Below are positions 2,155-19,677 of a stretch of 32,000 nucleotides of DNA, piece after piece. The position numbers and the translations under genes are program-made. Source of the DNA: Myxococcota bacterium (lineage in GTDB: Bacteria; Myxococcota_A; Polyangia; Polyangiales; Sandaracinaceae). Position 1 is the stretch's first letter; every line of letters starts with the position of its first letter. The stretch covers positions 11,716 through 43,715 of the forward strand of contig JAYZQJ010000191.1 in the NCBI GenBank assembly GCA_036149055.1. The letters run 5' to 3'. The notes beneath the pieces are model-generated. The model made no database searches, was not told the DNA's origin, and saw nothing but the letters and a program-made list of their open reading frames with translations.

Positions 2155-3393
2155 TCACCCGGTCTGGGCTTCGTCGTCGTCGTCGCTCGTGATCAGCCGC
2201 AGCGCCTTCGTGCGCATGCCGCTGACCCGGCGGGCCGAGAAGGGGAGCTCGTCGGCGGTCGCGTAGCGCATCACCCGGCCCGGGTCGGTCTCGGCGCGGC
2301 CGAGGTACCAGCCCTGGAGGAGGTCGACGCCGAGGCCGGCGGCGGCCTGCGACTCTCCGACCGTCTCGATGCCCTCCGCGACCACCTGGGCGCCGGTGGT
2401 GGAGGCGAAGCGGCAGAGCAGATCCACCAACCGCTGCTTCCGGGGCTCGCGGTCGAGGTCGCGGGTGAGGCTCATGTCGAGCTTCACGATGTCGGGGTCG
2501 ATGTCGGCGAGCGCGGCGAGGGAGCTCGCGCCGGCCCCGAGATCGTCGACCGCGATCCGGAAGCCCGCCTCGCGCAGGCGCCCCACCGAGGCCGCCCAGC
2601 CGGGGCGGCCGATGAGCGACGAGCGCTCGGTGATCTCGAGCACCACCCGGCGCGAGAACGCGCGCAGCGGACCCATGCGGATCATCAGCGCCTCCGCGTC
2701 GGTCAGCTCGTCCGGGTGGAGGTTGAGGAAGAGCTGGGTCGGCGCCGGGACCTGCGAGAGCCAGCGGGCCGCCGCGTGGGCGACCGCCCGACCGAGCGCG
2801 TGCACCGCGCCGTGGGCCTCGGCCGCCGCCAGCACCTGCTCGGGCCCGGTGAGCACGTCGCAGTCGCAGCGCAGCAGCGCCTCGAAGGCCACCGTGCGCC
2901 GGTCGCTGGCCCGCACGATCGGCTGGAGGCCCAGGGAGATTCCGTCCCGCGCGATCAGCGCCTCGAGCGCGCGCCCCTGCTCCCGGTGGGCGGCGTCGCG
3001 GGCCCGGGCCCAGCGGAGGCCGGCCCGCTCGGCGGTGTCGATCGCCTCGCGCACCGCGGACACCAGGTCCTTCGGGTGCACGGGTTTCTGAATGATCTTG
3101 GCGACTTCGCCGCGGTTGACCGCGTCGACCATCACGTCGACGTCCAGCGCGCCCGAGACCAGCAGGCGCACCATCGAGGGCTGCACGTCCCGGAGCCGGG
3201 CGAGCACGCTCAGGCCGTCGAGCCCGGGCATCCGGTAGTCGACGAGGGCCACGCTGAGGGACTCGCTCTTGGCGATGCGGAGGGCCTCGACCCCGCTCGC
3301 GGCGCCGACGGTCTCGAAGCCGGCGCGACGGAGCACCTGCTGGATCGTCCTTCGAACGAGATCGTCGTCGTCCACCACCAGGATCGAATGCAT
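2155..3393 (-). CDS. Response regulator with REC + EAL domain (c-di-GMP phosphodiesterase type)
   Basis: REC motifs present: ILVVDDDD, the acceptor Asp in ALVDYRMPGLDG, and IQKP. EAL-domain motifs present: FEALLR, ITE, DDLGAG, KLD, EGIET, QGWYLG. I chose the start at ATG 3393 (MHSILVVDDD) because SD GAGGAG lies 4 nt upstream on the minus strand. The track ORF extends to 3441. Confidence 0.92.
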   Translation of the reverse strand: MHSILVVDDDDLVRRTIQQVLRRAGFETVGAASGVEALRIAKSESLSVALVDYRMPGLDGLSVLARLRDVQPSMVRLLVSGALDVDVMVDAVNRGEVAKIIQKPVHPKDLVSAVREAIDTAERAGLRWARARDAAHREQGRALEALIARDGISLGLQPIVRASDRRTVAFEALLRCDCDVLTGPEQVLAAAEAHGAVHALGRAVAHAAARWLSQVPAPTQLFLNLHPDELTDAEALMIRMGPLRAFSRRVVLEITERSSLIGRPGWAASVGRLREAGFRIAVDDLGAGASSLAALADIDPDIVKLDMSLTRDLDREPRKQRLVDLLCRFASTTGAQVVAEGIETVGESQAAAGLGVDLLQGWYLGRAETDPGRVMRYATADELPFSARRVSGMRTKALRLITSDDDDEAQTG

Positions 3394-3706
3394 GGCTCTC
3401 CTCACATCGACGGAGGGGTGAAGAACTTGACCTCCCGCCATCGGGACGTCCCCGCTCCCTCACATCGAGCCTTCGCCCCGCTGGGGCGCCACACAAGTCC
3501 ACTGGATCGGACGCGTCCGCGGCGTCGGGCTTTCCCTGGCACGTCGAGATCGTTTTCCATCGGGGTGCGTAGCCTTTTTCGCACTTTGAACTCTCACGTC
3601 GTCGCGTTGCGCGGAGCCCCCGTCTTCGGCTAGCGTCGCCGCCCAGTTCCGGGAGGGGTGAGGTGCGCGCACGCGCAGGCCCGCCCTTCTCCGAGGAGGC
3701 TTTCAC
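3394..3706. promoter_or_regulatory. Divergent intergenic/promoter region between the REC-EAL gene and the sterol operon
   Basis: This is the only long (313 bp) non-coding gap in the window. It contains the least GC-rich patch (3550-3600, cgttttccat...cctttttcgcactttgaac). A possible -35/-10 pair is TTGCGC (3607-3612)-N18-TAGCGT (3631-3636). Two direct repeats are present (see findings). SD GAGGAGG (3693-3699) sits 7 nt before GTG 3707. Confidence 0.4.
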
Positions 3707-6220
<2,514 letters not shown>

Positions 6221-6223
6221 GCC

Positions 6224-7345
6224 ATGGCCGAGACGTACGACGCCGAGGTGGCGATCATCGGCGCCGGCCCGGCCGGCACCGCCGCGGCCGCGCACCTCGC
6301 GAGCCTCGGGATCGACGACGTGGTCCTCGTCGACCGCCACGACTTCCCGCGCGACAAGACCTGCGGCAGCGGCATCTCCCCCAAGGGGATCAAGGTGCTC
6401 AAGGAGCTCGGCATCTGGGAGGAGGTCGAGCCCCACGCCTACTGGATCCGCGGCATCCGCATCGTCACGCCGGGCGGCCGCGACAGCTGGCAGTCGGCCG
6501 GCGACGTCGCCGAGGCCGTGGTCTGCCACCGCCGCACCCTCGATCACATCCTCTGGAAGAAGGCCGTCTCGGGCGGCGTGCGCTTCCTGCCCAACTTCGA
6601 CGCCGCCGAGGCGATCGAGGAGGGCGGGCGCATGGTCGGCTTCAAGGCCCGCGACGGCCGCGAGGTCCGCGCCCGCTACACCCTGATCGCCGGCGGCAGC
6701 CACTGCCGCGTCGGCCTGCCGGAGCTCCGGCCGCGCCGCACCATCCAGGCGATCATGGGCTGGTGGGACGACGCGGACTTCAAGCCGCACCACGTCGAGA
6801 TGATCTTCGACCGGATGATCGAGCCCTACTACGGCTGGCTCTTCCCGGAGTCGGAGACGCGGGTGAACATCGGCATCACCTACGAGGATCCGCCCGGCGA
6901 GAAGAAGCACGCGCGGAAGCTCTTCCAGCAGTTCCTCGACAAGTACTACGGCGAGCGCCTCGCCAACGCGACGCAGGTCGGCGGCTGGAAGGGCCACCCG
7001 GTGGTCTGGAGCTACAAGATCGACAGCCTCACCGCGCCCGGCCGCGTCGCGATCGGGGAGTCCGGGCTGATGACCCACCCGGCGACCGCCGAGGGCATCT
7101 ACCAGGGCATGCGCTCCGGCATGCTCGGCGCCGAGGCCGTTCACTCGATCCTCCGCCGCGGCGTGGCCGAGCAGGAGGCGGGCGCGATCTACGAGCGCGA
7201 GTGCAAGAAGGCGTTCCAGCTCTCCTTCTGGGGCGGCGGCGTCTTCCGCAAGATGGTGCGCACCGACGCGCTCGACTGGGCGGTCGCGATCGGCGAGCAG
7301 CCGATGGTGCAGTCGGTCACCGCGAAGCTGATGGCGGCCATGTGA
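6224..7345 (+). CDS. FAD-dependent oxidoreductase, geranylgeranyl reductase family
   Basis: The 373-aa product has VAIIGAGPAGTAAA (GxGxxG), RDKTCGSGISP (the GGR-type Cys motif RxKxCGG), YGWLFP, and IGESGLMTHPATAEGI (GDAAG-like). It starts 3 nt after the previous stop. Its stop TGA (7343-7345) shares 1 nt with the next ATG. Confidence 0.85.
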   Translation: MAETYDAEVAIIGAGPAGTAAAAHLASLGIDDVVLVDRHDFPRDKTCGSGISPKGIKVLKELGIWEEVEPHAYWIRGIRIVTPGGRDSWQSAGDVAEAVVCHRRTLDHILWKKAVSGGVRFLPNFDAAEAIEEGGRMVGFKARDGREVRARYTLIAGGSHCRVGLPELRPRRTIQAIMGWWDDADFKPHHVEMIFDRMIEPYYGWLFPESETRVNIGITYEDPPGEKKHARKLFQQFLDKYYGERLANATQVGGWKGHPVVWSYKIDSLTAPGRVAIGESGLMTHPATAEGIYQGMRSGMLGAEAVHSILRRGVAEQEAGAIYERECKKAFQLSFWGGGVFRKMVRTDALDWAVAIGEQPMVQSVTAKLMAAM

Positions 7346-10300
7346 TGACGCCGCGGTACGACGTCGGGATCGTCGGCGCGTCGGTCGCCGGGTGCACCAC
7401 CGCGCTGGCGTGCGCGAAGGCGGGGGCGCGCGTGCTCCTGCTCGAGGCCGACCCGAACGAGGCGGCCGCGCAGCACGTCGGAGCGTGGCTCCACCCGGAC
7501 GCGATGGACGCGCTCGAGGGCCTCGGCGTCGACCTCGTGCCCCCCGTGGGCTACCCGACCGGCAAGGGCTACGTGCTCTTCCCGGAGGACGGCACCGAGG
7601 CCGTGGTCCTGCCGTACTCGGTGGGCCGCTTCGGCTTCTCGCTCCCGCAGGGCCTCCTGGTCGAGACGCTGCGGCAGCACTGCGACGCCGACGAGGCGGT
7701 GACCCTCCGCTCGCCGGTCCGCGCGAGCCGCGTCGACGCGGGTACGCTCACCTGGCAGGAGCGCGGCCGCCCGCGCAGCGCCCGGGTCGAGCACGTCGTC
7801 TTCGCCGCCGGCGCGGACGTGCAGCCGATCAAGCGCGGCGCCGGCTACGTCTTCGGCGCGATCGAGCGGCCGCCGACGCACCGCATCGCCAGCCTCGATC
7901 TGGTGGGCGCGACGCTGCCCTTCGAGGGCTTCCGACACGTCTTCGTCGGCGGCTGCGGCGTCGCGATCGCGCACCGCGTCGGCCCGGCCACCGTGCGCCT
8001 GGCGCTCGACGTGCCGCTCGGCTTCCGCGTGCCCCGCGAGGGCGGCGTGCAGCTGCTCGAGGCCTACGCGCCGTCGCTGCCGGAGGAGCTCGCCCTGCCC
8101 TTCGCCGAGGCGCTGCGCCGCGGGGCGCCGTCCTGGTCGCACGGCCGCATCCAGCCGCGCGGCAACATGATCCGCGGGGGCATCGCGCGGGTCGGCGACG
8201 CCGCCGGCAGCCTGCACCCGCTCACCGCGGCCGGCCCGAGCCTCGCGATCGCCGACGGCGTCGCCTTCGCCGAGTCCCGCTCGCCGGCCTCGTTCGCGCG
8301 CAAGCGCCGCCGCGACACCCGCCTCCCCGAGGCGATCGCGATCGGGCTCGCCGAGGTGCTGACCGACGAGGCGCCGGAGAGCGTCGCCATCCGCCGCGCG
8401 ATGTACAACATGTGGCGCGACGATCCGGGCGAGCGGCTCCGCACGATGAGCTACATCGCCGGCGAGAACGAGGGGCTGCTGCGCTTCGGCGGCTCGTGTC
8501 TCCGGGTCATGCTCTCGAGCGCGGCCCGGGTGGCGAAGAGCGGCGCCCGCGGCGAGCTGCGCCACGCGCACCGGACCGGCTCGGCGCTGCTCGAGCGCAT
8601 CGGCTGGATGGTCGGCGGCGCGCTCGGCTGGAGCGATCTCCTGCCCGACGCCTTCGCGGAGAAGCTCGAGGCGCGCGGCACCACGCGCTACCTCGGCGCG
8701 CTGCACCACACCGGCGAGGCCGAGGTCGTCGGGCTGCCCGCCCGGAGCGGCGGCGCGTCGTCGATCCAGACCGCGCTCGCGCGCGGCGCCCAGGCGCTGG
8801 TGAACGAGCAGGCCGAGGACGGCTCCTTCGAGGGGGAGGTCGTCTGGTGCCCGATGCTCGCCGCGCAGTACGTGCTCGCCTCGCACGTGATGGACCGGCC
8901 GATCGATCCCGAGCGTCGGCGGCTGCTCCTGCGTCACTTCGAGGACACGTTGCTGCCCGGCGGCGCGTGGGGCCTGCACGAGAAGAGCGAGCCCTACCTC
9001 TTCGTCACCACGCTCGTGTACGTCGCGGCCCGGCTCCTCGGGGTCGACAAGGACGACGCGCTCATCCGCGAGGCGAAGGCGTTCATCCGTCAGGAGGGCG
9101 GCGCGGTCGGCATCCCGAGCTGGGGCAAGCTCTGGCTCGCGCTCGTCGATCTCTACGCCTGGGAGGGCGTCAACCCGGTGGTGCCCGAGCTCTGGGCGAC
9201 GCCGCGCTGGCTGCCGATGCACCCGAGCCGCTACTACTGCCACACCCGGCTCATCTACATGGGCATGGCCGCGCTCTACGGCGGGCGCGTGCGGCGCGAA
9301 GCGAACGCGACCATCCGCTGCGTGCGCGACGAGATCTTCCTCCAGCCGTACGGCGAGATCGACTTCGACGCCGCGCGCGAGACCCTCCGCGAGGGGGACG
9401 TGCACGACGCGCCGGGGCCGCTCCTGAAGCTGAGCTACCGGCTCCTCACCCGCTTCGAGCAGGCCAAGTCCGACGGCCTCCGGCAGAGGCTCCTCGGCGA
9501 GCTGCGCGACAAGATCCGCTACGAGCTCCGCTCGACGCACTACACCTGCATCTCGCCGGTCAGCGGCATGCTCGGCCTCCTCGCGCTCCACGCGAACGAC
9601 CCGTCGGATCCCGACCTCGTGAAGGGGCTCGAGGGCTTCGAGGGCTGGATCTGGGAGGACGAGCAGGAGGGCGCGCGCATCGCCGGCGCCCGGAGCGCGA
9701 CCTGGGACACCGCGTTCGCCGCCCAGGCGCTCGCGGCGGCCGCGGGTCACGTGGACGTCAGCGCGCCCCTCGAGCGCGCCGACGCCTTCCTCGCCAGCCA
9801 GCAGATCCGGCGCGGCACCGGCCTCGAGGGGCAGCACGACCGGCTCGACCCGACCGGCGGCTACTGCTTCGCCGGCGTCTGGCACGGCTGGCCGGTCAGC
9901 GACTGCACCGCCGAGGCGATGCTCGCGCGGCTCCACAACCCGGCCGCGAAGCCGAGCGCCCGCGCGATGGAGCAGGCGGCCGAGTTCGTGCTGCGCTGCC
10001 AGAACGCCGACGGCGGCTTCGGGAGCTACGAGGCGCGGCGGCACGCGCGGCTCTCGATCGACTGGCTCAACCCGAGCGAGATGTTCGGCGCGTGCATGAC
10101 CGAGCGCTCCTACGTCGAGTGCACCGCGTCGTGCGTGCAGGGCCTCGCCGCCTTCCGCGAGCGCTACCCGGACCGGCTCCGCGGGCGCGTCGACGCGGCG
10201 ATCGAGGCCGGCGTCGCCCGCCTCCGCGCCGAGCAGCGCGCCGACGGCTCCTTCGAGGGCATGTGGGGCGTCAACTTCATCTACGGGACGCTCTTCGGGG

Positions 10301-10740
10301 TCCGCGGGCTGCTGGCCGGCGGCGTGCCCTGCACCGACCCGCAGATCCGCCGCGCCTGCGCGTGGCTGCTCGAGCGCCAGCGCCCCGACGGCGGCTGGGG
10401 CGAGCACTTCGCGAGCGTGCTCGAGGGCCGCTACGTGGAGCACGAGGAGGCGCAGGTCGTGCAGACCGCGTGGGCGCTGACCTGCCTGCTCGAGGCCGAG
10501 GAGCCGGACTTCGCGGCGCTCGAGCGCGCGGCCCGGCTGCTCGCCCGGACCCAGCGGTCCGACGGAACGTGGCCGAAGCAGGATCCCGAGGGGATCTTCT
10601 TCCACACCGCGCTCCTCGAGTACCGCCTCTACCGCGCATACTTCCCGCCCTGGGCGCTCGGGCTCTTCGCGAGCCGCGCCGAGGCCAGGGCCGCCTGGAC
10701 CGAAGGGGGCCGCGCCGAGCGCCGCCCCGCCATCGTCTGA
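7345..10740 (+). CDS. Fusion protein: squalene monooxygenase (epoxidase)-like flavoprotein domain (aa 1-430) + oxidosqualene cyclase (aa 472-1131)
   Basis: This is the real part of track ORF 3658-10740, starting at ATG 7345 (GTG 7342 is an alternative). N-terminal domain motifs: YDVGIVGASVAGC, GAWLHPDA, RVGDAAGSLHPLTAAGPS (compare SQLE GE.LQPGG and GDA.NMRHPLTGGGMT). C-terminal domain motifs: the catalytic GWPVSDCTAEAM (Asp at 9901-9903), WDTAFAAQAL, and QW repeats (EQRADGSFEGMWGVNFIYGT, ERQRPDGGWGEHF, RTQRSDGTWPKQ). The C-terminus YRAYFPPWALG is close to eukaryotic lanosterol synthase. Confidence 0.93.
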   Translation: MTPRYDVGIVGASVAGCTTALACAKAGARVLLLEADPNEAAAQHVGAWLHPDAMDALEGLGVDLVPPVGYPTGKGYVLFPEDGTEAVVLPYSVGRFGFSLPQGLLVETLRQHCDADEAVTLRSPVRASRVDAGTLTWQERGRPRSARVEHVVFAAGADVQPIKRGAGYVFGAIERPPTHRIASLDLVGATLPFEGFRHVFVGGCGVAIAHRVGPATVRLALDVPLGFRVPREGGVQLLEAYAPSLPEELALPFAEALRRGAPSWSHGRIQPRGNMIRGGIARVGDAAGSLHPLTAAGPSLAIADGVAFAESRSPASFARKRRRDTRLPEAIAIGLAEVLTDEAPESVAIRRAMYNMWRDDPGERLRTMSYIAGENEGLLRFGGSCLRVMLSSAARVAKSGARGELRHAHRTGSALLERIGWMVGGALGWSDLLPDAFAEKLEARGTTRYLGALHHTGEAEVVGLPARSGGASSIQTALARGAQALVNEQAEDGSFEGEVVWCPMLAAQYVLASHVMDRPIDPERRRLLLRHFEDTLLPGGAWGLHEKSEPYLFVTTLVYVAARLLGVDKDDALIREAKAFIRQEGGAVGIPSWGKLWLALVDLYAWEGVNPVVPELWATPRWLPMHPSRYYCHTRLIYMGMAALYGGRVRREANATIRCVRDEIFLQPYGEIDFDAARETLREGDVHDAPGPLLKLSYRLLTRFEQAKSDGLRQRLLGELRDKIRYELRSTHYTCISPVSGMLGLLALHANDPSDPDLVKGLEGFEGWIWEDEQEGARIAGARSATWDTAFAAQALAAAAGHVDVSAPLERADAFLASQQIRRGTGLEGQHDRLDPTGGYCFAGVWHGWPVSDCTAEAMLARLHNPAAKPSARAMEQAAEFVLRCQNADGGFGSYEARRHARLSIDWLNPSEMFGACMTERSYVECTASCVQGLAAFRERYPDRLRGRVDAAIEAGVARLRAEQRADGSFEGMWGVNFIYGTLFGVRGLLAGGVPCTDPQIRRACAWLLERQRPDGGWGEHFASVLEGRYVEHEEAQVVQTAWALTCLLEAEEPDFAALERAARLLARTQRSDGTWPKQDPEGIFFHTALLEYRLYRAYFPPWALGLFASRAEARAAWTEGGRAERRPAIV

Positions 10741-10784: not shown

Positions 10785-13700
10785 ATGAACCGCAGCAGCT
10801 ACGACGTCGTCGTCGTCGGAGCCGGGCCCGCCGGGTGCGGCGCCGCGCTCGCTCACGCCCGCCGGGGCGCCTCCGTGCTCGTGGTCGAGGCCGACCCTCG
10901 CGCCGCGAAGCGCTTCGCCGGCGAGTGGCTCCACCCCACCGGCGTCGCCGTGCTCGACGCGCTCCGGGTCGGCCGCCTCGAGCAGGCGAGGGCCCGCGCG
11001 GGCTACGGCTTCGTCATCTTCCCCGACGACGGCAGCGAGCCGATCGAGATGGCCTACACCGAGGGCGTCGCGCTGAGCGCCGAGCACCACGCGATCGTCG
11101 AGGCGATGCGCGACGCGCTCCGGGCCGAGGACCGGGTGGAGCTGCTCATCGGAGGCCGCGCGGTGCGGGTCGCCGACGGCGTCATCCGGATCGAGGACAA
11201 GAAGAGCGGCCGCGCGACCGACGTGCGCGCCGGACGGATCATCGGCGCCGACGGCCGCAAGTCGACGGTGCGCGAGAGCCTCGGCGTCCCGACCCAGAAG
11301 AGCGCGCCGCTGAGCTACATGGCCTCGGTCGAGCTGCGCGACGTGGAGCTGCCCTTCGAGGGCTTCGGTCACCTCGTCCTCGGCGGACCCGGCCCGGCGC
11401 TCTTCTACCGCATCGGCGACGGGCTCATCCGCGGCTGCCTCGACGTGCCGATCGCGCTCGGCCCGAACGCGCGCTCGCTCGAGGCGCTCTGGGACGGCTT
11501 CGGCCCGGTGATGCCGGAGTCGATGCGCCCCGCGCTCCGCGCCGCCCTCGAGCGCGGCCCGAGCGGCTGGGCGATCAACCAGTTCCGCCCCCGCGCGCTC
11601 TTCGGCGCCGGCGACGTGCGGCTGGTCGGCGACGCGGTCGGCCACGTGCACCCGATGACGGCCACCGGCATGACGCTCGGCCTGCTCGACGCCAAGGCCC
11701 TCGCCGAGAGCGACAGCCTGGAGTCCTACGCCAAGGCGCGCCGGAGCTACGTGCCGGAGCTGCTGTCGAACGCGCTCTACCACTGCTTCCGCCGTGACGA
11801 CCCGAGCGCGACCGCGATCCGCCGCGCGATGTTCGAGACGCTCCGCAAGGAGCCCCGCGAGCGCCGCCGCACGATGGACATCCTCGCCGGCACCGATCAG
11901 AGCCGGCGCAGCTTCGGCTCGGCCTTCCTCCGCATCGCCGCCCGCGCGGTCGGCGGCTCCCTCGAGAGCGAGCGCCCGCTGTCGCGCCTCATGAGCTTCG
12001 GCGAGTGGATGCAGTGGCCCGCCGCGCTGGTGGTGCCGAGCGGCCTCGACGCGAGCGTGCGCGCCCAGAGCAGCACGACGCACCCGATCCCGCAGCTGGC
12101 CAAGCTCACGCCGACCGCGGCCCCCGTGGCCCCGCCCGAGACGCCCGGCGGGAAGGCGCCGGCGCTCGACGTGCCGCTCACCCCGGCCCTCGAGCGCGGC
12201 ACCGCGGCGCTCCTCCGGGAGCTCGAGCGGCTCGCGATGCAGTTCGGCGAGGTGCCCGACGCGACCCTGGCCGGCCCGGCGCTCTCCTGCATCCGCGCGA
12301 TCACCGCGACCCGGATGCGCCTCGGCATGGCCGCGCGCATGACGCTCGGGCGTCGCCGCCTCGCCACCGAGGGCTTCCCCCGCCTCCTCGACGCCGAGCC
12401 GCACGCGCGGCACCTGGCGGAGCTCTGCCTGGTGCTCCTCGACGGCGCGCCGTGGGACGAGCAGCCGATCGCGAGCCTCGACGAGGGCGTGCGCGCGCTG
12501 CTCGACTGCCAGACCGAGAGCGGCGGCTTCGCGCGCTCCCGGGGCGTCGCCTCCTCGCCCGGCGCGGCCGGAGAGCTCGAGCTGACCGCGCTCGCGTGTC
12601 GGGCGCTCGAGGTGGTCGCGCGCAAGGGCAAGAGCGACGCCGACCTCGGCCGCGCGCTCGAGCGGGCCGCCGACTGGGTCGTCTCGCTGCAGGGCGACGA
12701 CGGCGACTTCGGCGGCGACGTCTCGCGCACCGCCTGGGCGATCGAGGCCCTCATCGCGGCCGGCGTGCACCCCGGCGATCCGGCGGCGCGTCGCGCGGTC
12801 CGCTGGCTCTCGGTGGCGCTCGACCCGAGCGGCGATCCGGTCGAGGCGGCGCGCGCCGTCCGGGCGCTCCTCGCCGCCGGCGTCTCCTCCAACGAGGCGA
12901 TCGTCTCCGCGGCCCGCGGCCTCGCGTCGCTCGAGGAGACCGACTGGCGCGTGGCGCGCGAGGTGGTCGAGGCGCTCGCCGCCTGTGAGGTCCGCCGGGC
13001 CGAGCGGCCGCAGAAGCGCGCCCGTCGCCGCAAGCGCGGCAGCGACAAGTCGCCGATCGGGCCCGAGCTGAAGGCGGACTGGAAGTTCTGCCGCCAGGCG
13101 CTCGGCGAGGTCTCGCGCACCTTCGCGCGGCCGATCGAGATGCTCCCGCCGAAGCTCGAGGTCGCCGTCTCGCTCGGCTACCTCCTCTGCCGCATCGCCG
13201 ACACCGTCGAGGACCACGTCGCGGTGCCCTTCGAGGTGAAGGACGATCTGTTCGCGAAGCTCTGCGCGGTGCTCGAGCACGGCGCGGATCCGGCGCCCTT
13301 CGCCGAGGCGTTCACCCACATCGAGGGCGACGACGCGGAGCTGTCCCTGGCCCGCGAGCTGCCGCGCGTGATGCGGGTCTACGACGCGCAGGACGAGGCG
13401 ACGAAGAAGGCGTGCACGCGCTGGGTCACCGAGATGGCCCGCGGCATGAGCCTCTACACGCACCGCAAGCCCGAGGCCGACGGCGTCGCGGCGCTGCACA
13501 CGATCCCGGACCTCGAGCGCTACTGCTACTACGTGGCGGGCACGGTCGGGCACCTCCTGACCGACCTCTTCGTCGACGCGATCGGCGAGGACCCCGAGGG
13601 CGCGCTCGCGATCGCGATGCGGGACCACGCGGAGGGCTTCGCGACCGGCCTGCAGCTCACGAACATCCTGAAGGACGTGACCGACGACCTCGCGCGCGGG

Positions 13701-14105
13701 GTCTCGTTCATCCCGCGCACCGAGTGCGCGCGGCAGGGCTTCTCGGTCGCCGATCTCGCCGACCCGAAGGTGCGCGACCGGGCCCACGCCGCCGTCTCGC
13801 CGGTCTTCGACATCGCCAAGGAGCGGCTCGACGCGGCGCTCGAGTACTCGCTGCTCATCCCGTCCGAGCACCGCCAGATCCGGCTCTTCTGCCTGCTGCC
13901 GCTCTGGATGGCCGGCCGCACCCTGGCGCTCGGCCGCGGCAACGACGCGATGTTCGAGCCCGACCTGCCGGTCAAGATCACCCGGAGCGAGGTCGAGTCG
14001 CTGATCGCCGAGTGCATGACGCTCGCCGAGGACGACGACGCGCTGCGCGCTCGCTACGCGCGCCTGTTCGAGCCGGCCCAGGGCCAGCGGCGGGAGATGC
14101 GATGA
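10785..14105 (+). CDS. Three-domain fusion: squalene monooxygenase (aa 1-420) + terpene-cyclase/prenyltransferase-type alpha-helical repeat domain (aa 465-735) + squalene synthase (farnesyl-diphosphate farnesyltransferase, aa 760-1106)
   Basis: This is the real part of track ORF 7392-14105, starting at ATG 10785 with an SD. SQMO motifs: VVVVGAGPAGC, GEWLHPTG, GADGRKSTVRE, LVGDAVGHVHPMTATGMT. Middle-domain repeats: LLDCQTESGGF and WVVSLQGDDGDFGG. SQS motifs: VSRTFARPI, YLLCRIADTVED (first Asp-rich), YCYYVAGTVGHLL, GLQLTNILKDVTDDLARGVSFIP (second Asp-rich). Confidence 0.92.
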   Translation: MNRSSYDVVVVGAGPAGCGAALAHARRGASVLVVEADPRAAKRFAGEWLHPTGVAVLDALRVGRLEQARARAGYGFVIFPDDGSEPIEMAYTEGVALSAEHHAIVEAMRDALRAEDRVELLIGGRAVRVADGVIRIEDKKSGRATDVRAGRIIGADGRKSTVRESLGVPTQKSAPLSYMASVELRDVELPFEGFGHLVLGGPGPALFYRIGDGLIRGCLDVPIALGPNARSLEALWDGFGPVMPESMRPALRAALERGPSGWAINQFRPRALFGAGDVRLVGDAVGHVHPMTATGMTLGLLDAKALAESDSLESYAKARRSYVPELLSNALYHCFRRDDPSATAIRRAMFETLRKEPRERRRTMDILAGTDQSRRSFGSAFLRIAARAVGGSLESERPLSRLMSFGEWMQWPAALVVPSGLDASVRAQSSTTHPIPQLAKLTPTAAPVAPPETPGGKAPALDVPLTPALERGTAALLRELERLAMQFGEVPDATLAGPALSCIRAITATRMRLGMAARMTLGRRRLATEGFPRLLDAEPHARHLAELCLVLLDGAPWDEQPIASLDEGVRALLDCQTESGGFARSRGVASSPGAAGELELTALACRALEVVARKGKSDADLGRALERAADWVVSLQGDDGDFGGDVSRTAWAIEALIAAGVHPGDPAARRAVRWLSVALDPSGDPVEAARAVRALLAAGVSSNEAIVSAARGLASLEETDWRVAREVVEALAACEVRRAERPQKRARRRKRGSDKSPIGPELKADWKFCRQALGEVSRTFARPIEMLPPKLEVAVSLGYLLCRIADTVEDHVAVPFEVKDDLFAKLCAVLEHGADPAPFAEAFTHIEGDDAELSLARELPRVMRVYDAQDEATKKACTRWVTEMARGMSLYTHRKPEADGVAALHTIPDLERYCYYVAGTVGHLLTDLFVDAIGEDPEGALAIAMRDHAEGFATGLQLTNILKDVTDDLARGVSFIPRTECARQGFSVADLADPKVRDRAHAAVSPVFDIAKERLDAALEYSLLIPSEHRQIRLFCLLPLWMAGRTLALGRGNDAMFEPDLPVKITRSEVESLIAECMTLAEDDDALRARYARLFEPAQGQRREMR

Positions 14106-14809
14106 TGGGCTTCGAGCTTCCGATGATGGACAACCTCTGGTTCCACGTCGCGATCGGCATCACGCTCTTCGTCGACGCGGTCCTCCTGGTGTTCCTCAGC
14201 TGGGCCTACCGCTCGCCGCGCTTCGCGAAGTACCACATTCGCAAGCCGATGGAGATGCGGGTCAGCAAGTCGAATTACCGCTGGACGGTGGGCGTCATCG
14301 GCCTGCTGTCGAGCAGCTCGACGGTGGTGCTCATCTACGGGCTCGCCCCGCTGACCATCAGCGAGACGACGACCACGCCCTGGTGGCTCATCGCGCTGCA
14401 GTTCTTCGGCGTGCTCTTCGTCTACGACTTCGCCTACTACTTCATGCATCGGACGATGCATCACCGGAAGCTCATGCCGCTGGTGCACGAGATCCATCAC
14501 CGCGTCCGCGTGCCGAGCGCGCTCGAGAGCCTCTACCTCTCGCCGGTCGAGATGCTCGCGGGCCTGCTGCTGCTGATGGCGGTGACGTGGGCGCTCGGCC
14601 CGGTGCACTGGATCGCCTTCGTGGCGGTCTTCTTCCTCTACTCGACGCTGCACATCGTCATCCACTCGGGGATGACCTTCCCGCACCCGGTCTTCCGCGT
14701 GATGAACCACCTCACGATGAAGCACCACAAGCACCACCTGAACAAGCACGGTCACAACTTCGCGTCCGTGACCCCGCTGCCGGACATCGTGTTCGGCACC
14801 TCTGTCTGA
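14102..14809 (+). CDS. Fatty acid hydroxylase superfamily membrane di-iron enzyme (sterol desaturase / C-4 methyl oxidase family, ERG3/ERG25-like)
   Basis: The 235-aa product has about 4 TM segments. His boxes are HRTMHH, HEIHHR and HHKHHLNKHGH. Its ATG overlaps the previous stop (ATGA at 14102-14105). Confidence 0.88.
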   Translation: MMGFELPMMDNLWFHVAIGITLFVDAVLLVFLSWAYRSPRFAKYHIRKPMEMRVSKSNYRWTVGVIGLLSSSSTVVLIYGLAPLTISETTTTPWWLIALQFFGVLFVYDFAYYFMHRTMHHRKLMPLVHEIHHRVRVPSALESLYLSPVEMLAGLLLLMAVTWALGPVHWIAFVAVFFLYSTLHIVIHSGMTFPHPVFRVMNHLTMKHHKHHLNKHGHNFASVTPLPDIVFGTSV

Positions 14810-14816
14810 GGCAGTC

Positions 14817-16487
14817 ATGTTCCTTCGCAGACCCGAAGTCCCGGAAGGGCTCAAGCCCGCGCCGGAGCTGTCCGGCGGGCTCCCGCTCGTCGGTCACACC
14901 GTCGAGTTCGTGCGCGACACGATCGGCATGCTCGAGCGCGCCCACCACGAGCTCGGCGAGGTCGCCGCGGTGCGCGTCGCCGGCCGCCGCATGGTCGCCC
15001 TCTTCGGCCCCGAGGCCCACGAGGCGGTCTTCCGCGCGAAGGACCAGGTCCTCGACCCGCGCGAGGCCTACAAGATCATGACCCCCGTCTTCGGCGAGGG
15101 CATGGTCTACGACGCCTCGCCCGAGAAGATGAACGAGCAGTTCAAGATGCTGCTCCCGGCGCTCAAGGACCGCCGCATGCGCACCTACGGGGAGACCATC
15201 CTCGACGAGGTCGAGCGCAGCGTCGCGGACTGGGGGGACGAGGGCGAGATCGACATCGTCGACTACTGCCGCGTCCTGACGAACTTCACCTCCTCGCGCT
15301 GCCTCATCGGCGAGGAGTTCCGCGAGCGCATGACCGACGAGTTCGCGCGCATCTACCACGACCTCGAGCGCGGCGTGACGCCCCTCGCCTACATCGACGC
15401 GAACCTCCCGATCCCGAGCTTCAAGAAGCGGGACGCGGCCCGGGTCCGGCTCGTGAAGCTGATCGGCGCGATCATCGACGAGCGCGCCCGGACCGGCCGG
15501 ACCGGTGAGGACTTCCTCCAGACCCTGATGGAGGCCCGCTACCAGGACGGCGCGGCGCTCACCCACGACGAGATCACCGGGATGCTGCTCGCGGCGATGT
15601 TCGCCGGGCACCACACCAGCTCGGTCACCACCGCGTGGGCCCTCATCGAGCTCTGCAAGAACCCCGCGTACATGCGGCGCGTGGTCGCGGAGCTCGACGA
15701 GACCTACGGCGAGAGCGGCCAGACCGACTACCAGTCGCTCCGCAACATCCCGGTCACCGAGCACGCGGTGAAGGAGACCCTGCGGCTCTACCCGCCGCTC
15801 TTCCTGCTCATCCGGGTGGTGCAGAAGGACTGGACCTTCAAGGGGCACCACCTGCCGAAGGGCACCTGGATCCTCGTGTCACCGACCGTCTCGCAGCGCG
15901 ACCGCGAGGTCTTCACCCACCCTTACACCTTCGACCCCGACCGCTTCGCCGAGCCGCGCAACGAGGGCAAGAAGGACTGGGCGTTCATCGCCTTCGGCGG
16001 CGGCCGCCACAAGTGCCTGGGCAACGCGTTCGCGCTCCTCCAGGTCAAGGCGATCCTCGGCACGCTCCTGCGGCGCTACGAGTTCGAGCTGGTCGACCCG
16101 AAGGTGAAGCCGGACTTCCACGGCCTCGTCATCGGCCCCTCCGAGCCCTGCCGGCTGCGCTACCGCCGCCGCGAGGAGAAGGTCGCCGCCCGCCCGGCCC
16201 CGAAGGTCGAGGAGGCGCCGAAGCCGGCGCCGAAGAAGAAGGAGGAGCGAGTCCAGCTCCGGATCGCGCTCGACCTCGATCTCTGCCAGGGCCACGCGGT
16301 CTGCGTGAACGAGGCGCCGGGCGTCTTCTACGTCTCGGACGAGACCGGCAAGGTCGCCCTCCACACCGATCGCCCCGACCCGAGCCAGAACGACGCCGTG
16401 CGCGCCGCGGCCGACTACTGCCCGCAGCGCGTCATCCAGGTCCACGAAGAAGACGAAGCGCCCCTCACCTGCCCCGTGGCGCACTGA
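14817..16487 (+). CDS. cyp51: Sterol 14alpha-demethylase (CYP51) fused to a C-terminal 3Fe-4S-type ferredoxin domain
   Basis: CYP51 signatures present: YKIMTPVFGEGMVYDA (B' helix), MFAGHHTSS (helix I), ETLRLYPP, and heme loop FGGGRHKCLGNAF (Cys codon 16014-16016). It is very similar by eye to M. tuberculosis CYP51. A Lys/Pro/Ala linker (16164-16250) precedes the ferredoxin domain (16251-16484), which carries CQGHAVC...CP (CxxHxxC...CP). Confidence 0.95.
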   Translation: MFLRRPEVPEGLKPAPELSGGLPLVGHTVEFVRDTIGMLERAHHELGEVAAVRVAGRRMVALFGPEAHEAVFRAKDQVLDPREAYKIMTPVFGEGMVYDASPEKMNEQFKMLLPALKDRRMRTYGETILDEVERSVADWGDEGEIDIVDYCRVLTNFTSSRCLIGEEFRERMTDEFARIYHDLERGVTPLAYIDANLPIPSFKKRDAARVRLVKLIGAIIDERARTGRTGEDFLQTLMEARYQDGAALTHDEITGMLLAAMFAGHHTSSVTTAWALIELCKNPAYMRRVVAELDETYGESGQTDYQSLRNIPVTEHAVKETLRLYPPLFLLIRVVQKDWTFKGHHLPKGTWILVSPTVSQRDREVFTHPYTFDPDRFAEPRNEGKKDWAFIAFGGGRHKCLGNAFALLQVKAILGTLLRRYEFELVDPKVKPDFHGLVIGPSEPCRLRYRRREEKVAARPAPKVEEAPKPAPKKKEERVQLRIALDLDLCQGHAVCVNEAPGVFYVSDETGKVALHTDRPDPSQNDAVRAAADYCPQRVIQVHEEDEAPLTCPVAH

Positions 16488-16501
16488 AGAGAGAGCAGCA
16501 C

Positions 16502-18076
16502 ATGCAGAACGTCGCCATCGAGCTCGAGAGCACCCCCGAGGTCATCGACTGCCGCGAGCCGGCCACCCACGCGCCCCTCGGCAAGGTGCCGGTGGACGGG
16601 CCGGACGTGGTCCGCGCCAAGGTCGCGCGGGCGCGCGTCGCGCAGAAGAGCTGGGGGGAGAGCACCTTCTCGGAGCGCCGCCGCCTCCTCAAGACCATCC
16701 TCGCCCACGTGCTCGACCACGCGGACGAGCTCTGCGAGGTCGTGGTCCGCGACGCCGGCAAGACCCGCGAGAACGCGGTGATGGGCGAGATCTGGCCGGT
16801 CTGCGAGAAGCTCCGCTGGACGATCGCGAACGGCGAGAAGCACCTCCGCCCCGAGCGCATGTCGAGCGGCCTGTTCCTGCACAAGAAGGCCACCGTCCTC
16901 TACCAGCCGCTCGGCGTCATCGGCGTGATCTGCCCGTGGAACTACCCGCTGCAGAACGTGCTCGGGCCGACCATCCCGGCGCTCTTCGCGGGCAACGCGG
17001 TGGTGGTGAAGGTCTCCGAGCAGGTCGCGTGGTCGTCGGCGCGCATGCAGCGCATCTTCGACGAGGCGTTCGACGCGCTCGGCTACCCGAAGGACACCGT
17101 GCAGATCGTCAACGGCTACGGCGAGACCGGCGCCGCGCTGGTCCGCTCGGGCGTCGACAAGGTGATCTTCACCGGCTCGGTCCCGAACGGCCGGAGGATC
17201 ATCGAGGGCAGCGTCGAGAACATCACGCCCGTCATCCTCGAGCTCGGCGGCAAGGACGCGTTCATCGTCTGCGAGGACGCCCACATGGAGCAGGCGGTGC
17301 ACGCCGCGCTCACCGGCGTGTTCATCGCGGCCGGCCAGAACTGCATGGCCGCCGAGCGCGTGCTCGTGCACGCGAAGGTCTACGACGACTTCGTCGGCCG
17401 CCTCGTGAGCGAGGTGAAGAAGCTCCGCGTGGGCGACGCGCCGCAGGGCGCGGTCGACGTGGGCGCGCTCGTCTCGCCGCAGCAGGTCGAGATCGTCGAG
17501 CGGCTCGTGAACGACGCGGTCGAGAGCGGCGCGCGGGTCCTCGTCGGCGGCAAGCGCGGCGATCGCCCGGGCCAGTTCTTCGAGCCCACCGTGCTCGTCG
17601 ACGTCACCCCGGACATGGCGATCATGAACGAGGAGGTCTTCGGCCCGGTGATGTGCGTGCACCGCTACGAGACCGACGACGAGGCGATCGAGATCGCCAA
17701 CGGCACCCGCTTCGGCCTCGGCTCCACCGTGATGAGCCGCTCGGGCACGCGCGCCCGCCGCCTCGCCGAGCGCCTCCGCGTCGGCTCCTGCACCATCAAC
17801 GACTTCGGCTTCACCTACATGGCGCAGGACCTGCCCTTCGGCGGCGTGGACGCCAGCGGCTTCGGTCGGCTCAACGGCCGCGAGGGCCTGCGAGGCTGCA
17901 CCAACCAGAAGGCCATCCTCGAGGATCGGCTGCCGCTGCACATGCCGGCCAAGCTCTACCCGGTGAAGCCCGAGGTCTACCCGCTCGTGCGCGGGGTGCT
18001 CCGGACGCTCTACCAGCCGACCCTGACCGGCCGCGCCAAGGCGGTGGTCGAGCTCGCCAAGAACCTCCGCCGATGA
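16502..18076 (+). CDS. Aldehyde dehydrogenase family protein
   Basis: This is the real part of track ORF 15635-18076, starting at ATG 16502. ALDH motifs present: CPWNYP, FTGS, ELGGKD (catalytic Glu), GQNCMAAER (catalytic Cys), EEVFGPV. It has a C-terminal extension of about 50 aa. Confidence 0.9.
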   Translation: MQNVAIELESTPEVIDCREPATHAPLGKVPVDGPDVVRAKVARARVAQKSWGESTFSERRRLLKTILAHVLDHADELCEVVVRDAGKTRENAVMGEIWPVCEKLRWTIANGEKHLRPERMSSGLFLHKKATVLYQPLGVIGVICPWNYPLQNVLGPTIPALFAGNAVVVKVSEQVAWSSARMQRIFDEAFDALGYPKDTVQIVNGYGETGAALVRSGVDKVIFTGSVPNGRRIIEGSVENITPVILELGGKDAFIVCEDAHMEQAVHAALTGVFIAAGQNCMAAERVLVHAKVYDDFVGRLVSEVKKLRVGDAPQGAVDVGALVSPQQVEIVERLVNDAVESGARVLVGGKRGDRPGQFFEPTVLVDVTPDMAIMNEEVFGPVMCVHRYETDDEAIEIANGTRFGLGSTVMSRSGTRARRLAERLRVGSCTINDFGFTYMAQDLPFGGVDASGFGRLNGREGLRGCTNQKAILEDRLPLHMPAKLYPVKPEVYPLVRGVLRTLYQPTLTGRAKAVVELAKNLRR

Positions 18077-19677
18077 TCGAGACGTTCGACTACGTCGTGG
18101 TCGGCGGGGGCTCCGCCGGCTGCATCGTCGCGGCCGAGCTGAGCGAGGATCCGCGCGTCCGGGTGCTGCTCCTCGAGCGCGGGGACGACGCGCAGGAGCA
18201 CCCCGAGACGCTCCGCGCCGACGGCTACAAGGACGCGTTCGCGAACGACGCGCTCGTGCTCGAGCGCTTCAGCGTGCACGCCGATCGCTGGGGTGACCGC
18301 CGGCTCTTCATGGGCTCGGGGCACGGCCTCGGCGGCAGCGGCAACATTAACGGCATGGTCTACACCCGCGGCGCAAAGGTCGACTACGACGCCTTCCCCG
18401 AGGGCTGGCGCTGGGCCGACGTGGTGCCCGACTTCGAGCGCATCGAGGCGCAGCTCCGCCCGCGCCCCCGCGCGGCGACGGCCTTCACCGAGGTCTGCCT
18501 CGACGCGGCCGAGGAGGCGGGCTTCGCGCGCTCGAAGGACCTGAACGACGGCGACCTCGGCGGGGTGCTCGGCTACGAGCACATGAACTACGAGGGTGAC
18601 GACCGGCGCAGCAGCTACGTCGCCTTCCTCCTGCCCGCGCTCGACCGCGGCAACCTCGTGGTCCGCACCAACGCGAAGGTCGAGCGCCTCACCGTCGACG
18701 AGCGGGGCGTCACCGGCGTGCGCTACGCCTGGGACGGCGGCGACCACGAGGCGCGGGCGGTCCGCGAGGTGGCGATGTGCGCCGGCGCCCTCGAGACGCC
18801 GCGCCTGCTGATGCTCTCGGGCATCGGGCCGAGCGGCGCGCTCCGGCACGTGGGCCTGCCCGCGGTGCACGAGGTGCCCGGGGTGGGCGAGAACCTCCAC
18901 GACCACCCGAACGTGAGCCTCTTCTTCCGCGGTCAGCGCGAGGTCGACTGCAACTACCCGCAGCTCTACGGCTTCCACCGCGCGAACGAGGCGACCGACC
19001 TGCCCGAGGGCGCGAGCGACACCTGCTACGTCTTCTACCCGGCCCGCAGCTCGCTCAAGGAAGCGATGATGCGCATGCTGCCGACGCTGGTGCTGCCGGA
19101 GCCGCTCTACGATCTGCCCGCGATGCCCAAGCTGGTGCGCGGCGGCGTGCGCCTCGCCTTCGGGCCGCGCGCGATGCGAGAGGCGGTCAAGCGCGTCTAC
19201 GGCATCGTCGTCATCCTCGGCAAGCCCAAGAGCCGCGGCCGGCTCCGGCTCACCGCCTCGAGCCCGAGCGCCCCGGCGGCGATCGACCCGGGCTACTTCG
19301 CCGACCCCGAGGACATGGAGACGATGATCCGCGGCGTCGAGCGCGCCCGCCGCATCGCCCGCGCGCAGCCGCTCCGGTCGTGGGGCAACACGGAGCTCTT
19401 CCCCGGCCTGCTCGGGCGCTCGCGCGACGCGATCGAGGGCTGGATCCGGCAGAACGTGATGACCACGTATCACTACGCCGGCACCTGCGCGATGGGCGAC
19501 AACGGCGCGAGCGTGTGCGATCCGCGCCTCCGGGTGCGGGGCGTGCGCGGCCTCCGGATCGCCGACGCCTCGGCCATCCCGTTCACGCCGGTCTCGGCCC
19601 TCAACGCCCCCTCCATGCTGGTCGGCCACCGCGCCGCCCGCTTCATGCGCGAAGAGTCCCCAAGCGTGGACGCCTGA
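18073..19677 (+). CDS. GMC-family FAD oxidoreductase (choline dehydrogenase / alcohol oxidase-like)
   Basis: This is the real part of track ORF 16936-19677. Its ATG overlaps the ALDH stop (ATGA at 18073-18076). Motifs present: DYVVVGGGSAGCIVAAELSED...LLLERG, GGSGNINGMVYTRG, LMLSGIGP, YHYAGTCAMG (active-site His), IADASAIP. Confidence 0.92.
   Translation: MIETFDYVVVGGGSAGCIVAAELSEDPRVRVLLLERGDDAQEHPETLRADGYKDAFANDALVLERFSVHADRWGDRRLFMGSGHGLGGSGNINGMVYTRGAKVDYDAFPEGWRWADVVPDFERIEAQLRPRPRAATAFTEVCLDAAEEAGFARSKDLNDGDLGGVLGYEHMNYEGDDRRSSYVAFLLPALDRGNLVVRTNAKVERLTVDERGVTGVRYAWDGGDHEARAVREVAMCAGALETPRLLMLSGIGPSGALRHVGLPAVHEVPGVGENLHDHPNVSLFFRGQREVDCNYPQLYGFHRANEATDLPEGASDTCYVFYPARSSLKEAMMRMLPTLVLPEPLYDLPAMPKLVRGGVRLAFGPRAMREAVKRVYGIVVILGKPKSRGRLRLTASSPSAPAAIDPGYFADPEDMETMIRGVERARRIARAQPLRSWGNTELFPGLLGRSRDAIEGWIRQNVMTTYHYAGTCAMGDNGASVCDPRLRVRGVRGLRIADASAIPFTPVSALNAPSMLVGHRAARFMREESPSVDA

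What the first reader, a model, noticed from the sequence alone, without database searches (positions are those of the whole stretch)
6224..7345. Geranylgeranyl-reductase-family flavoenzyme embedded in a sterol operon: candidate substitute sterol double-bond reductase
This GGR-type enzyme (RDKTCGSG, YGWLFP) is translationally linked on both sides. It sits 3 nt after the HMGR-SDR stop and shares 1 nt with the SQMO-OSC start. GGRs saturate isoprenoid C=C bonds. CYP51 action creates a delta-14 double bond, and the lanosterol or cycloartenol side chain carries an isoprenoid-like delta-24 bond. No ERG24/DHCR-type membrane reductase is present in the window. This flavoprotein is therefore a plausible non-homologous replacement as a delta-24(25) or delta-14 reductase. 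Alternatively it may partly reduce squalene or the prenyl precursor.
Basis: inference. Interest (0 to 1): 0.62.

Follow-up and report, generated by a model that had tools for sequence, protein, structure and literature searches.

The report
Known bacterial sterol side-chain reductase (Bsr)

Summary
Positions 6224-7345 (+) encode a 373-aa geranylgeranyl-reductase (GGR)-type flavoprotein. It starts 3 nt after the HMGR-SDR stop and shares 1 nt with the start of the epoxidase-like/OSC fusion gene. No ERG24-type gene lies in the window.

The protein is 74% identical over its full length to Sandaracinus amylolyticus AKF09143. [quoted passage not shown] - **Orthology:** the protein falls in a 100/100-supported clade with Bsr and keeps the same gene order (HMGR-SDR | Bsr | SE-OSC | SE-SQS).
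- **Motifs and fold:** Cys47, YGWLFP and the FAD motifs are invariant. The model's best fold match is the Thermoplasma GGR structure 3OZ2.
- **Distribution:** 20 of 21 Myxococcota genomes with a Bsr-like gene also have OSC.
- **Other reductases:** no canonical DHCR24 was found in this genome. A canonical delta-14 reductase (4QUV-like) lies on another contig.

The delta-24(25) reading is therefore supported and the delta-14 reading is not. The function is already known, so interest is low. One local point: this genus lacks ERG2/EBP and SdmA, so Bsr probably acts on delta-8 sterols here. The scan had already noted the neighbouring genes of this window.

The parts
6224..7345 (+). bsr ortholog: 373-aa GGR-family FAD-dependent sterol C-24(25) reductase
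   Evidence: Translation. It is 74% identical to AKF09143, the characterised Bsr, and sits in a 100/100 clade with it. The best fold match is 3OZ2, TM 0.84.
6260..6277 (+). GAGPAG dinucleotide (FAD) binding motif, residues 13-18
   Evidence: Sequence. Invariant in a 25-sequence alignment.
6362..6364 (+). Cys47 codon in RDKTCGSG, the GGR catalytic/redox cysteine
   Evidence: Aligned to the CG of 3OZ2. Invariant. The paper names this residue as conserved in Bsr homologs.
6830..6847 (+). YGWLFP (YxWxFP) motif, which positions the isoprenoid double bond over the flavin in GGRs
   Evidence: Aligned to YIWVFP of 3OZ2. Invariant. Role as stated in the paper.
7055..7096 (+). GESGLMTHPATAEG, the counterpart of the GDAAxxxxPxxGxG second FAD-binding motif
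   Evidence: Aligned to GDAARLIDPITGGG of 3OZ2. G278, E279, G281, P286 and G291 are invariant.
6212..6223 (+). Junction with the upstream gene: SD-like GGGAG (6212-6216), HMGR-SDR stop TGA (6218-6220) and a 3-nt spacer
   Evidence: Read directly.
7343..7347 (+). TGATG junction: the bsr stop overlaps the start of the SE-like/OSC gene by 1 nt
   Evidence: Read directly.
3707..6220 (+). Context: HMG-CoA reductase fused to an SdmB/HpnA-like SDR (837 aa)
   Evidence: Pfam. NCBIfam SdmB model at 306.9 bits, below its 600-bit cut-off. Conserved upstream of bsr in L002, L003, G380 and G355.
7345..10740 (+). Context: squalene-epoxidase-like domain fused to oxidosqualene cyclase (1131 aa)
   Evidence: Pfam. 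Conserved immediately downstream of bsr.
10785..14105 (+). Context: squalene epoxidase - helical-repeat middle region - squalene synthase fusion (1106 aa)
   Evidence: Frame plot and translation. Pfam SE 9.3e-19 and SQS_PSY 1.8e-42.
14817..16487 (+). Context: CYP51-ferredoxin fusion (sterol C-14 demethylase)
   Evidence: Pfam.

Best explanation
[quoted passage not shown] It is a soluble or peripheral FAD-containing enzyme of the geranylgeranyl-reductase family, and it saturates the delta-24(25) double bond of the sterol side chain. That bond is the last isoprene unit left over from squalene. Reduced flavin delivers hydride to the trisubstituted C=C. The YxWxFP motif holds the bond over the isoalloxazine ring, and Cys47 assists redox or proton transfer, as in archaeal GGRs. 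The enzyme replaces the unrelated VAO-type DHCR24, which was not found in this genome. It is co-translated with the early pathway genes (HMGR-SDR, epoxidase-like/OSC, epoxidase/SQS). Shown here: orthology, motifs, fold, synteny, co-occurrence with OSC, no DHCR24 found, and presence of a separate delta-14 reductase. Shown in the literature for the 74%-identical ortholog: C-24 reduction of zymosterol and desmosterol. Inferred: that this protein has the same activity, its physiological electron donor, and its native substrate. Because no ERG2, EBP or SdmA was found in this genus, the substrate is probably a delta-8 sterol such as a zymosterol-type intermediate or an earlier 4-methylated one.
For: P0041 is AKF09143.1, the enzyme assayed by Lee & Welander. 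P0001 is 74% identical and 84% similar to it over 374 columns with one gap. In the maximum-likelihood tree, P0001 sits in a 100/100 clade with AKF09143, while this genome's two other GGR-family paralogs sit on branches of about 5 substitutions per site. The gene order HMGR-SDR | bsr | SE-OSC | SE-SQS is conserved in the S. amylolyticus-like contig L002, in the metagenome contigs L003-L005 (the same order, found in three samples), and in G380 and G355. Cys47, YGWLFP and both FAD motifs are invariant across 25 homologs and align to PDB 3OZ2. The AF2 model has pLDDT 87 and pTM 0.87, and its best fold match is 3OZ2 with TM 0.84/0.79. In a 401-genome Myxococcota sample, 21 genomes have a Bsr-like hit at E<=1e-30 and 20 of those also have OSC, against 51 of 401 overall. 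Bsr-like and OSC genes are adjacent even at 36-38% identity (G003, G060). No DHCR24 homolog was found in G000, G380 or G355, while the same query hits at 44-45% identity and about 1e-130 in other Myxococcota. Strong DHCR24 hits and Bsr-like hits barely overlap. [quoted passage not shown]
Against: No experiment exists on this particular protein or organism, which is an uncultured Sandaracinaceae MAG. The published assay used crude E. coli lysate with added FAD and 65 mM DTT for 18 h, so kinetics, electron donor and native substrate are unknown. The paper also notes that substrate-specificity residues of Bsr are not defined. The curated GGR-family HMM thresholds are missed by about 1 bit. The co-occurrence counts come from related genomes and are not independent.
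Confidence: 0.9

Rival explanations
1. It reduces a linear isoprenoid before cyclisation: one terminal double bond of squalene or 2,3-oxidosqualene, or a prenyl diphosphate. OSC would then make 24,25-dihydrolanosterol directly, which would explain the gene's place among the early pathway genes.
For: GGR-family enzymes normally act on linear prenyl chains (paper text). The gene is tightly coupled to HMGR, SQS, epoxidase and OSC rather than to late genes. S. amylolyticus shows no C-24-unsaturated sterols at all, so reduction happens early.
Against: The ortholog reduces preformed sterols (zymosterol, desmosterol), which is enough to explain the phenotype. There is no evidence for dihydrosqualene intermediates. 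Linear substrates were not reported as tested.
Confidence: 0.05
2. It is the delta-14 reductase acting on the 8,14-diene made by CYP51.
For: There is no ERG24-type gene in the window, and CYP51-ferredoxin lies in the same operon.
Against: The genome has a full-length canonical delta-14 sterol reductase on C133, at E 8.5e-115 to 4QUV and 374 bits to PF01222. In S. amylolyticus, Bsr and an ERG4/ERG24 gene sit in the same cluster. The ortholog's demonstrated activity is at C-24. The delta-14 bond is a ring double bond, unlike GGR substrates.
Confidence: 0.02
3. It is a MenJ-like menaquinone (or other quinone/prenyl lipid) side-chain reductase that merely sits next to the sterol genes.
For: MenJ is the second-best NCBIfam model at 91.3 bits. 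Some JGI records name homologs 'menaquinone-9 beta-reductase'. The paper's tree places Bsr nearest the Mycobacteriales MenJ clade.
Against: The MenJ score of 91 bits is far below that model's 700-bit cut-off. Synteny with sterol genes is conserved, and 20 of 21 genomes with a Bsr-like gene also have OSC. The ortholog has measured sterol activity.
Confidence: 0.02

Closest known systems
Bsr, bacterial C-24 sterol reductase of Sandaracinus amylolyticus (AKF09143; Lee & Welander 2025, J Bacteriol 207:e00495-24)
   Same: 74% identity over the full length, the same length class (373 vs 377 aa), the same clade and the same operon position between HMGR-SDR and SE-OSC. It has the same catalytic Cys and YxWxFP motif. 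As with S. amylolyticus, no DHCR24 was found in this genome.
   Different: The host is a different, uncultured Sandaracinaceae genus. In S. amylolyticus the SdmA gene lies between HMGR-SDR and bsr, and ERG24 and ERG2 genes are in the cluster. Here no SdmA or ERG2 ortholog was found, and the delta-14 reductase is on another contig. The surrounding pathway, and so probably the native substrate and end product, differ.
Archaeal digeranylgeranylglycerophospholipid reductases (Thermoplasma acidophilum Ta0516, PDB 3OZ2; Sulfolobus acidocaldarius GGR, PDB 3ATQ/4OPC)
   Same: The fold matches (TM 0.84 to 3OZ2), as do the FAD motifs, Cys47 and YxWxFP. Both reduce unactivated trisubstituted isoprenoid C=C bonds.
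   Different: Identity is only about 21-22%. The archaeal substrates are linear C20 chains on phospholipids with several double bonds, not a single side-chain bond of a tetracyclic sterol. The protein is also shorter than the Sulfolobus enzyme (373 vs 453 aa).
DHCR24 / DWF1 (eukaryotic delta-24 sterol reductase, VAO-type FAD_binding_4 family)
   Same: It most likely performs the same reaction, saturation of sterol delta-24(25), and also uses FAD.
   Different: The fold and family are unrelated: P0001 has no PF01565 domain and no N-terminal membrane anchor. This is a functional analog, not a homolog.
MenJ (Mycobacterium menaquinone reductase, NF045655)
   Same: It is the nearest characterised bacterial GGR-family branch according to the paper's tree. 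Both are single-bond isoprenoid side-chain reductases.
   Different: The score is 91 bits against that model's 700-bit cut-off. The substrate is a quinone prenyl chain rather than a sterol.

Membership tests
Bsr (bacterial C-24 sterol reductase clade of the GGR family) | Orthology to the characterised enzyme AKF09143 | tested here: met
   74% identity and 84% positives over the full length. Placed in a 100/100 clade with AKF09143, while this genome's own GGR paralogs are very distant. The accession was confirmed against the paper's Table S2.
Bsr (bacterial C-24 sterol reductase clade of the GGR family) | Co-localisation with sterol biosynthesis genes in an OSC-bearing genome | tested here: met
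   The operon HMGR-SDR | bsr | SE-OSC | SE-SQS | ... | CYP51fx is present here. The core order is conserved in L002, L003, G380 and G355. 20 of 21 genomes with a Bsr-like gene have OSC.
Bsr (bacterial C-24 sterol reductase clade of the GGR family) | Conserved GGR catalytic cysteine and YxWxFP motif | tested here: met
   C47 and Y203-P208 are invariant in 25 homologs and align to 3OZ2.
Bsr (bacterial C-24 sterol reductase clade of the GGR family) | [quoted passage not shown] | not testable with these tools
   Shown only for the S. amylolyticus ortholog, in E. coli lysate.
Geranylgeranyl reductase family (TIGR02032 / Pfam GGR_cat PF22578) | Score above the curated family cut-off | tested here: inconclusive
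   TIGR02032 scores 157.4 bits against a cut-off of 158.8, and PF22578 scores 25.9 against 27. Both are best-in-class hits but just under threshold.
Geranylgeranyl reductase family (TIGR02032 / Pfam GGR_cat PF22578) | GGR-type flavoprotein fold | tested here: met
   The AF2 model has pLDDT 87. The top Foldseek hit is 3OZ2 at E 1.2e-26 and TM 0.84/0.79, and Sulfolobus GGR entries are also in the top 15. The wider fold class is shared with halogenases and monooxygenases.
ERG4/ERG24 sterol reductases (delta-14, delta-7, delta-24(28)) | PF01222 multi-pass membrane domain | tested here: not met
   P0001 has no PF01222 hit. The only genomic PF01222 match is on C133, and that protein matches 4QUV at 8.5e-115.
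DHCR24 (canonical C-24 reductase) | VAO-type FAD_binding_4 domain homologous to DHCR24 | tested here: not met
   P0001 has no PF01565 hit. The best match to DHCR24 anywhere in the genome is 27% identity over 114 aa of a DprE1-like protein. The positive control rang in other Myxococcota.
MenJ menaquinone reductase (NF045655) | Score above the equivalog cut-off | tested here: not met
   91.3 bits against a cut-off of 700.

The most novel reading that the evidence does not exclude
In this lineage Bsr may work as part of an early-pathway assembly with the HMGR-SDR, epoxidase-like/OSC and epoxidase/SQS fusion proteins. It would act at or before cyclisation, on squalene, oxidosqualene or nascent lanosterol, so that the pathway never releases delta-24 sterols. 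In a genus where no ERG2/EBP or SdmA was found, this would feed a distinct delta-8-sterol end product. That would make the side-chain reduction a pre- or peri-cyclisation step, unlike any eukaryotic route.
Probability: 0.08. Interest if true: 0.5.

Novelty: already known. Interest (0 to 1): 0.15.

Why it matters
The finding independently rediscovers a published result. Myxobacteria saturate the sterol side chain with a GGR-family flavoprotein instead of the eukaryotic DHCR24. This is a case of convergent evolution that separates bacterial from eukaryotic cholesterol-type pathways. For this genome the practical value is a confident annotation (bsr) and a pathway prediction: C-24-saturated delta-8 sterols rather than cholesterol, because no ERG2/EBP was found in this genus. 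It adds no new principle.

Tried and rejected
- **Delta-14 reductase reading.** Rejected. A canonical delta-14 sterol reductase lies on C133, and ERG24 and Bsr sit in the same cluster in S. amylolyticus.
- **FAD_binding_4 genes near the C133 reductase as a possible hidden DHCR24.** By eye, the 552-aa neighbour looks like an alkyl-DHAP-synthase-type protein and the 452-aa one looks GlcD-like (these two were not scanned). Four further PF01565 proteins were scanned: one (on C79) is DprE1-like at 375 bits. The other three have only weak hits (61-83 bits) to GlcD, DprE1 or lactone-oxidase models. None is DHCR24.
- **First DHCR24 control on family f13.** It did not ring, so I widened the search to the phylum sample. 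There the query hit at 44-45% identity, which validates it.
- **Own-genome GGR paralogs (C22, C137) as possible co-orthologs.** Rejected. They align to P0001 only over the N-terminal FAD motif.
- **ERG2 search.** It rang in none of the 14 control genomes, so I used G355 as a positive control, where it scored 256 bits inside the cluster.
- **Tree exclusions.** L019 (G250, in-frame TGA) and L032 (partial) were left out of the tree.

Full report
**Observation**

The window has 72.9% GC, and codon-position GC plots give unambiguous gene calls. Positions 6224-7345 (+) encode a 373-aa protein, P0001, with GC3 of 0.99.
- The RDKTCGSG and YGWLFP motifs are present. The Cys47 codon is at 6362-6364 and YGWLFP is at 6830-6847.
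- The upstream HMG-CoA-reductase/SDR fusion (3707-6220) ends with TGA at 6218-6220, 3 nt before ATG 6224. An SD-like GGGAG lies at 6212-6216.
- The stop TGA at 7343-7345 shares its A with ATG 7345 of the next gene.
- Pfam and NCBIfam place P0001 nearest the geranylgeranyl-reductase family. TIGR02032 scores 157.4 bits against a cut-off of 158.8. PF22578 GGR_cat scores 25.9 against 27.
- The single ERG4/ERG24-family match in the 9.9-Mb genome is on contig C133, not in the window.

There are two epoxidase-like domains. A weakly matching one is fused to OSC (7345-10740). A strongly matching one is fused, through a helical-repeat middle region, to squalene synthase (10785-14105).

**What it is**

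A search of the protein collection found more than 100 homologs at 63-95% identity. Those that carry a name come from Sandaracinaceae and other Myxococcota, including Sandaracinus amylolyticus.

[quoted passage not shown] The authors noticed a GGR-family gene in the S. amylolyticus sterol cluster and expressed it in E. coli. [quoted passage not shown] They named the enzyme Bsr, bacterial C-24 sterol reductase. S. amylolyticus and Minicystis rosea contain only C-24-saturated sterols and lack DHCR24.

The paper's Table S2 gives the enzyme as AKF09143. An exact look-up shows that hit P0041 is AKF09143.1. P0001 is 74% identical and 84% similar to it across 374 columns with one gap. The weakest homologs the authors accept as Bsr are 24-46% identical, so P0001 is far inside the family.

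**Independent checks of orthology**

- **Tree.** I built a maximum-likelihood tree of 33 sequences. They comprised P0001, AKF09143, metagenomic homologs, Bsr-like hits from a 401-genome Myxococcota sample, and this genome's two other GGR-family paralogs. P0001 falls in a 100/100-supported clade with AKF09143, inside a Sandaracinaceae subclade. The paralogs (C22, C137) sit on branches of about 5 substitutions per site and align to P0001 only over the N-terminal FAD motif.
- **Synteny.** The order HMGR-SDR | bsr | SE-OSC | SE-SQS is conserved in an S. amylolyticus-like contig (L002), in the metagenome contigs L003-L005 (the same order, found in three samples), in the same-genus genome G380 and in the same-family genome G355.
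- **Motifs.** Cys47, Y203-G-W-L-F-P208, GAGPAG and the GESG...P....G motif are invariant in a 25-sequence alignment. They align to the corresponding residues of the Thermoplasma acidophilum GGR structure 3OZ2.
- **Fold.** An AlphaFold2 model (pLDDT 87, pTM 0.87) has 3OZ2 as its best fold match (TM 0.84/0.79), with Sulfolobus GGR entries also among the top hits.

In 401 sampled Myxococcota genomes, 21 have a Bsr-like match at E<=1e-30 and 51 have an OSC match at E<=1e-60.
- 20 of the 21 Bsr-like genomes are OSC-positive. The one exception is the weakest hit (32% identity) in an 88%-complete genome.
- Bsr-like and OSC genes are adjacent even in distant members (G003 at 36%, G060 at 38%).

- It gave no homolog in G000, G380 or G355. 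The best match was 27% identity over 114 residues of a DprE1-like protein.
- The same query hit at 44-45% identity (about 1e-130) in other Myxococcota, which validates the query.
- None of the 13 genomes with strong DHCR24 hits has a Bsr-like hit. The only genome with both is G259, which carries a DHCR24 fragment.

These genomes are related, so the counts are descriptive and not a statistical test.

**The delta-14 alternative**

The C133 gene (34077-35363, minus strand; 428 aa) matches the solved delta-14 sterol reductase 4QUV at E 8.5e-115 over its full length. The S. amylolyticus cluster carries an ERG4/ERG24 gene alongside bsr. A second, NTF2-type bacterial 8,14-sterol reductase has also been described (PMC13277303). 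Nothing points to the GGR-type protein for this step.

**Local pathway context**

The following were not found in G000 (96% complete). ERG2 and SdmA were also searched for, and not found, in the same-genus G380 (100% complete).
- **ERG2:** no PF04622 match. The positive control G355 carries it inside its cluster.
- **EBP:** no PF05241 match in G000; G380 was not searched for EBP.
- **SdmA:** no ortholog. The best match is 29-31% identity over the Rieske domain only.

Each genome has one ERG4/ERG24 reductase. So this genus probably cannot isomerise delta-8 to delta-7 and stops at delta-8 sterols. Its Bsr would then act on zymosterol-type or earlier intermediates; zymosterol is a demonstrated Bsr substrate. 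This last step is inference.

**Mechanism**

By analogy with structurally characterised GGRs, and as the paper argues, reduced FAD transfers hydride to the trisubstituted C-24(25) double bond. The YxWxFP motif holds the bond over the flavin, and Cys47 contributes to redox or proton transfer. The physiological reductant is unknown. The published assay relied on lysate plus FAD and 65 mM DTT.

**Verdict**

The delta-24(25) reading is supported through a 74%-identical, syntenic ortholog that has been assayed biochemically. The delta-14 reading is not supported. The squalene-level reading is possible but unneeded. The function is already published, so novelty is 'already known' and interest is low.

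Earlier notes of this scan on the same window cover the neighbouring genes and agree with what I saw in passing.

Noticed in passing
window 10785-14105 (+): A single 1106-aa protein joins a canonical squalene epoxidase domain (PF08491, 9e-19), a middle region with faint cyclase-repeat hits, and squalene synthase (PF00494, 2e-42). The fusion is conserved in L002, L003, G380 and G355.
   Followed up: partly
window 7345-8750 (+): The epoxidase-like domain fused to OSC matches the SE family only weakly (PF08491, 2e-5). It is 32-36% identical to the SQS-fused copy (tblastn in G380 and G355), so there are two paralogous epoxidase modules and one looks degenerate.
   Followed up: partly
window 14102-19677 (+): A FA_hydroxylase (235 aa), an aldehyde dehydrogenase and a GMC oxidoreductase flank CYP51-ferredoxin. 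The genome has no SdmA ortholog. The order is identical in same-genus G380 but not in G355 or S. amylolyticus. This may be an alternative C-4 methyl oxidation module.
   Followed up: partly
genome G000 and G380 (whole): ERG2 and an SdmA ortholog were not found in either assembly of this genus, and EBP was not found in G000. G355 and S. amylolyticus-like contigs carry ERG2 in the cluster. The pathway here probably ends at delta-8 sterols rather than cholesterol.
   Followed up: partly
window 3707-7345 (+): HMGR-SDR and bsr are in the same reading frame, separated only by TGA plus one codon (GCC). Read-through of that single stop would give a three-domain fusion. Nothing suggests this happens.
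   Followed up: no
G000:C133:34077-38042: The genome's only ERG4/ERG24 (delta-14) reductase lies outside any sterol cluster. It is about 1 kb from a 552-aa FAD_binding_4 protein that looks like an alkyl-DHAP-synthase-type ether-lipid enzyme, with one small thioredoxin-like ORF (132 aa) between them.
   Followed up: no
phylum sample: G130, G160, G170, G235, G260, G345: Six genomes of family f3 have strong DHCR24 homologs (35-45% identity to human) but no OSC match at E<=1e-30. This could be a DHCR24-like enzyme without de novo sterol synthesis, or assembly gaps.
   Followed up: no
L019 (G250:C50:33315-34388): A Bsr-like gene at 57-59% identity carries an in-frame TGA near its 5' end. It may be a pseudogene or a sequencing error.
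   Followed up: no
window 2155-3441 (-) and 19696-21387 (+): A REC-EAL response regulator lies upstream of the operon on the opposite strand. A hybrid histidine kinase follows the last biosynthetic gene. The kinase and the next S41 peptidase gene are conserved in G380.
   Followed up: no
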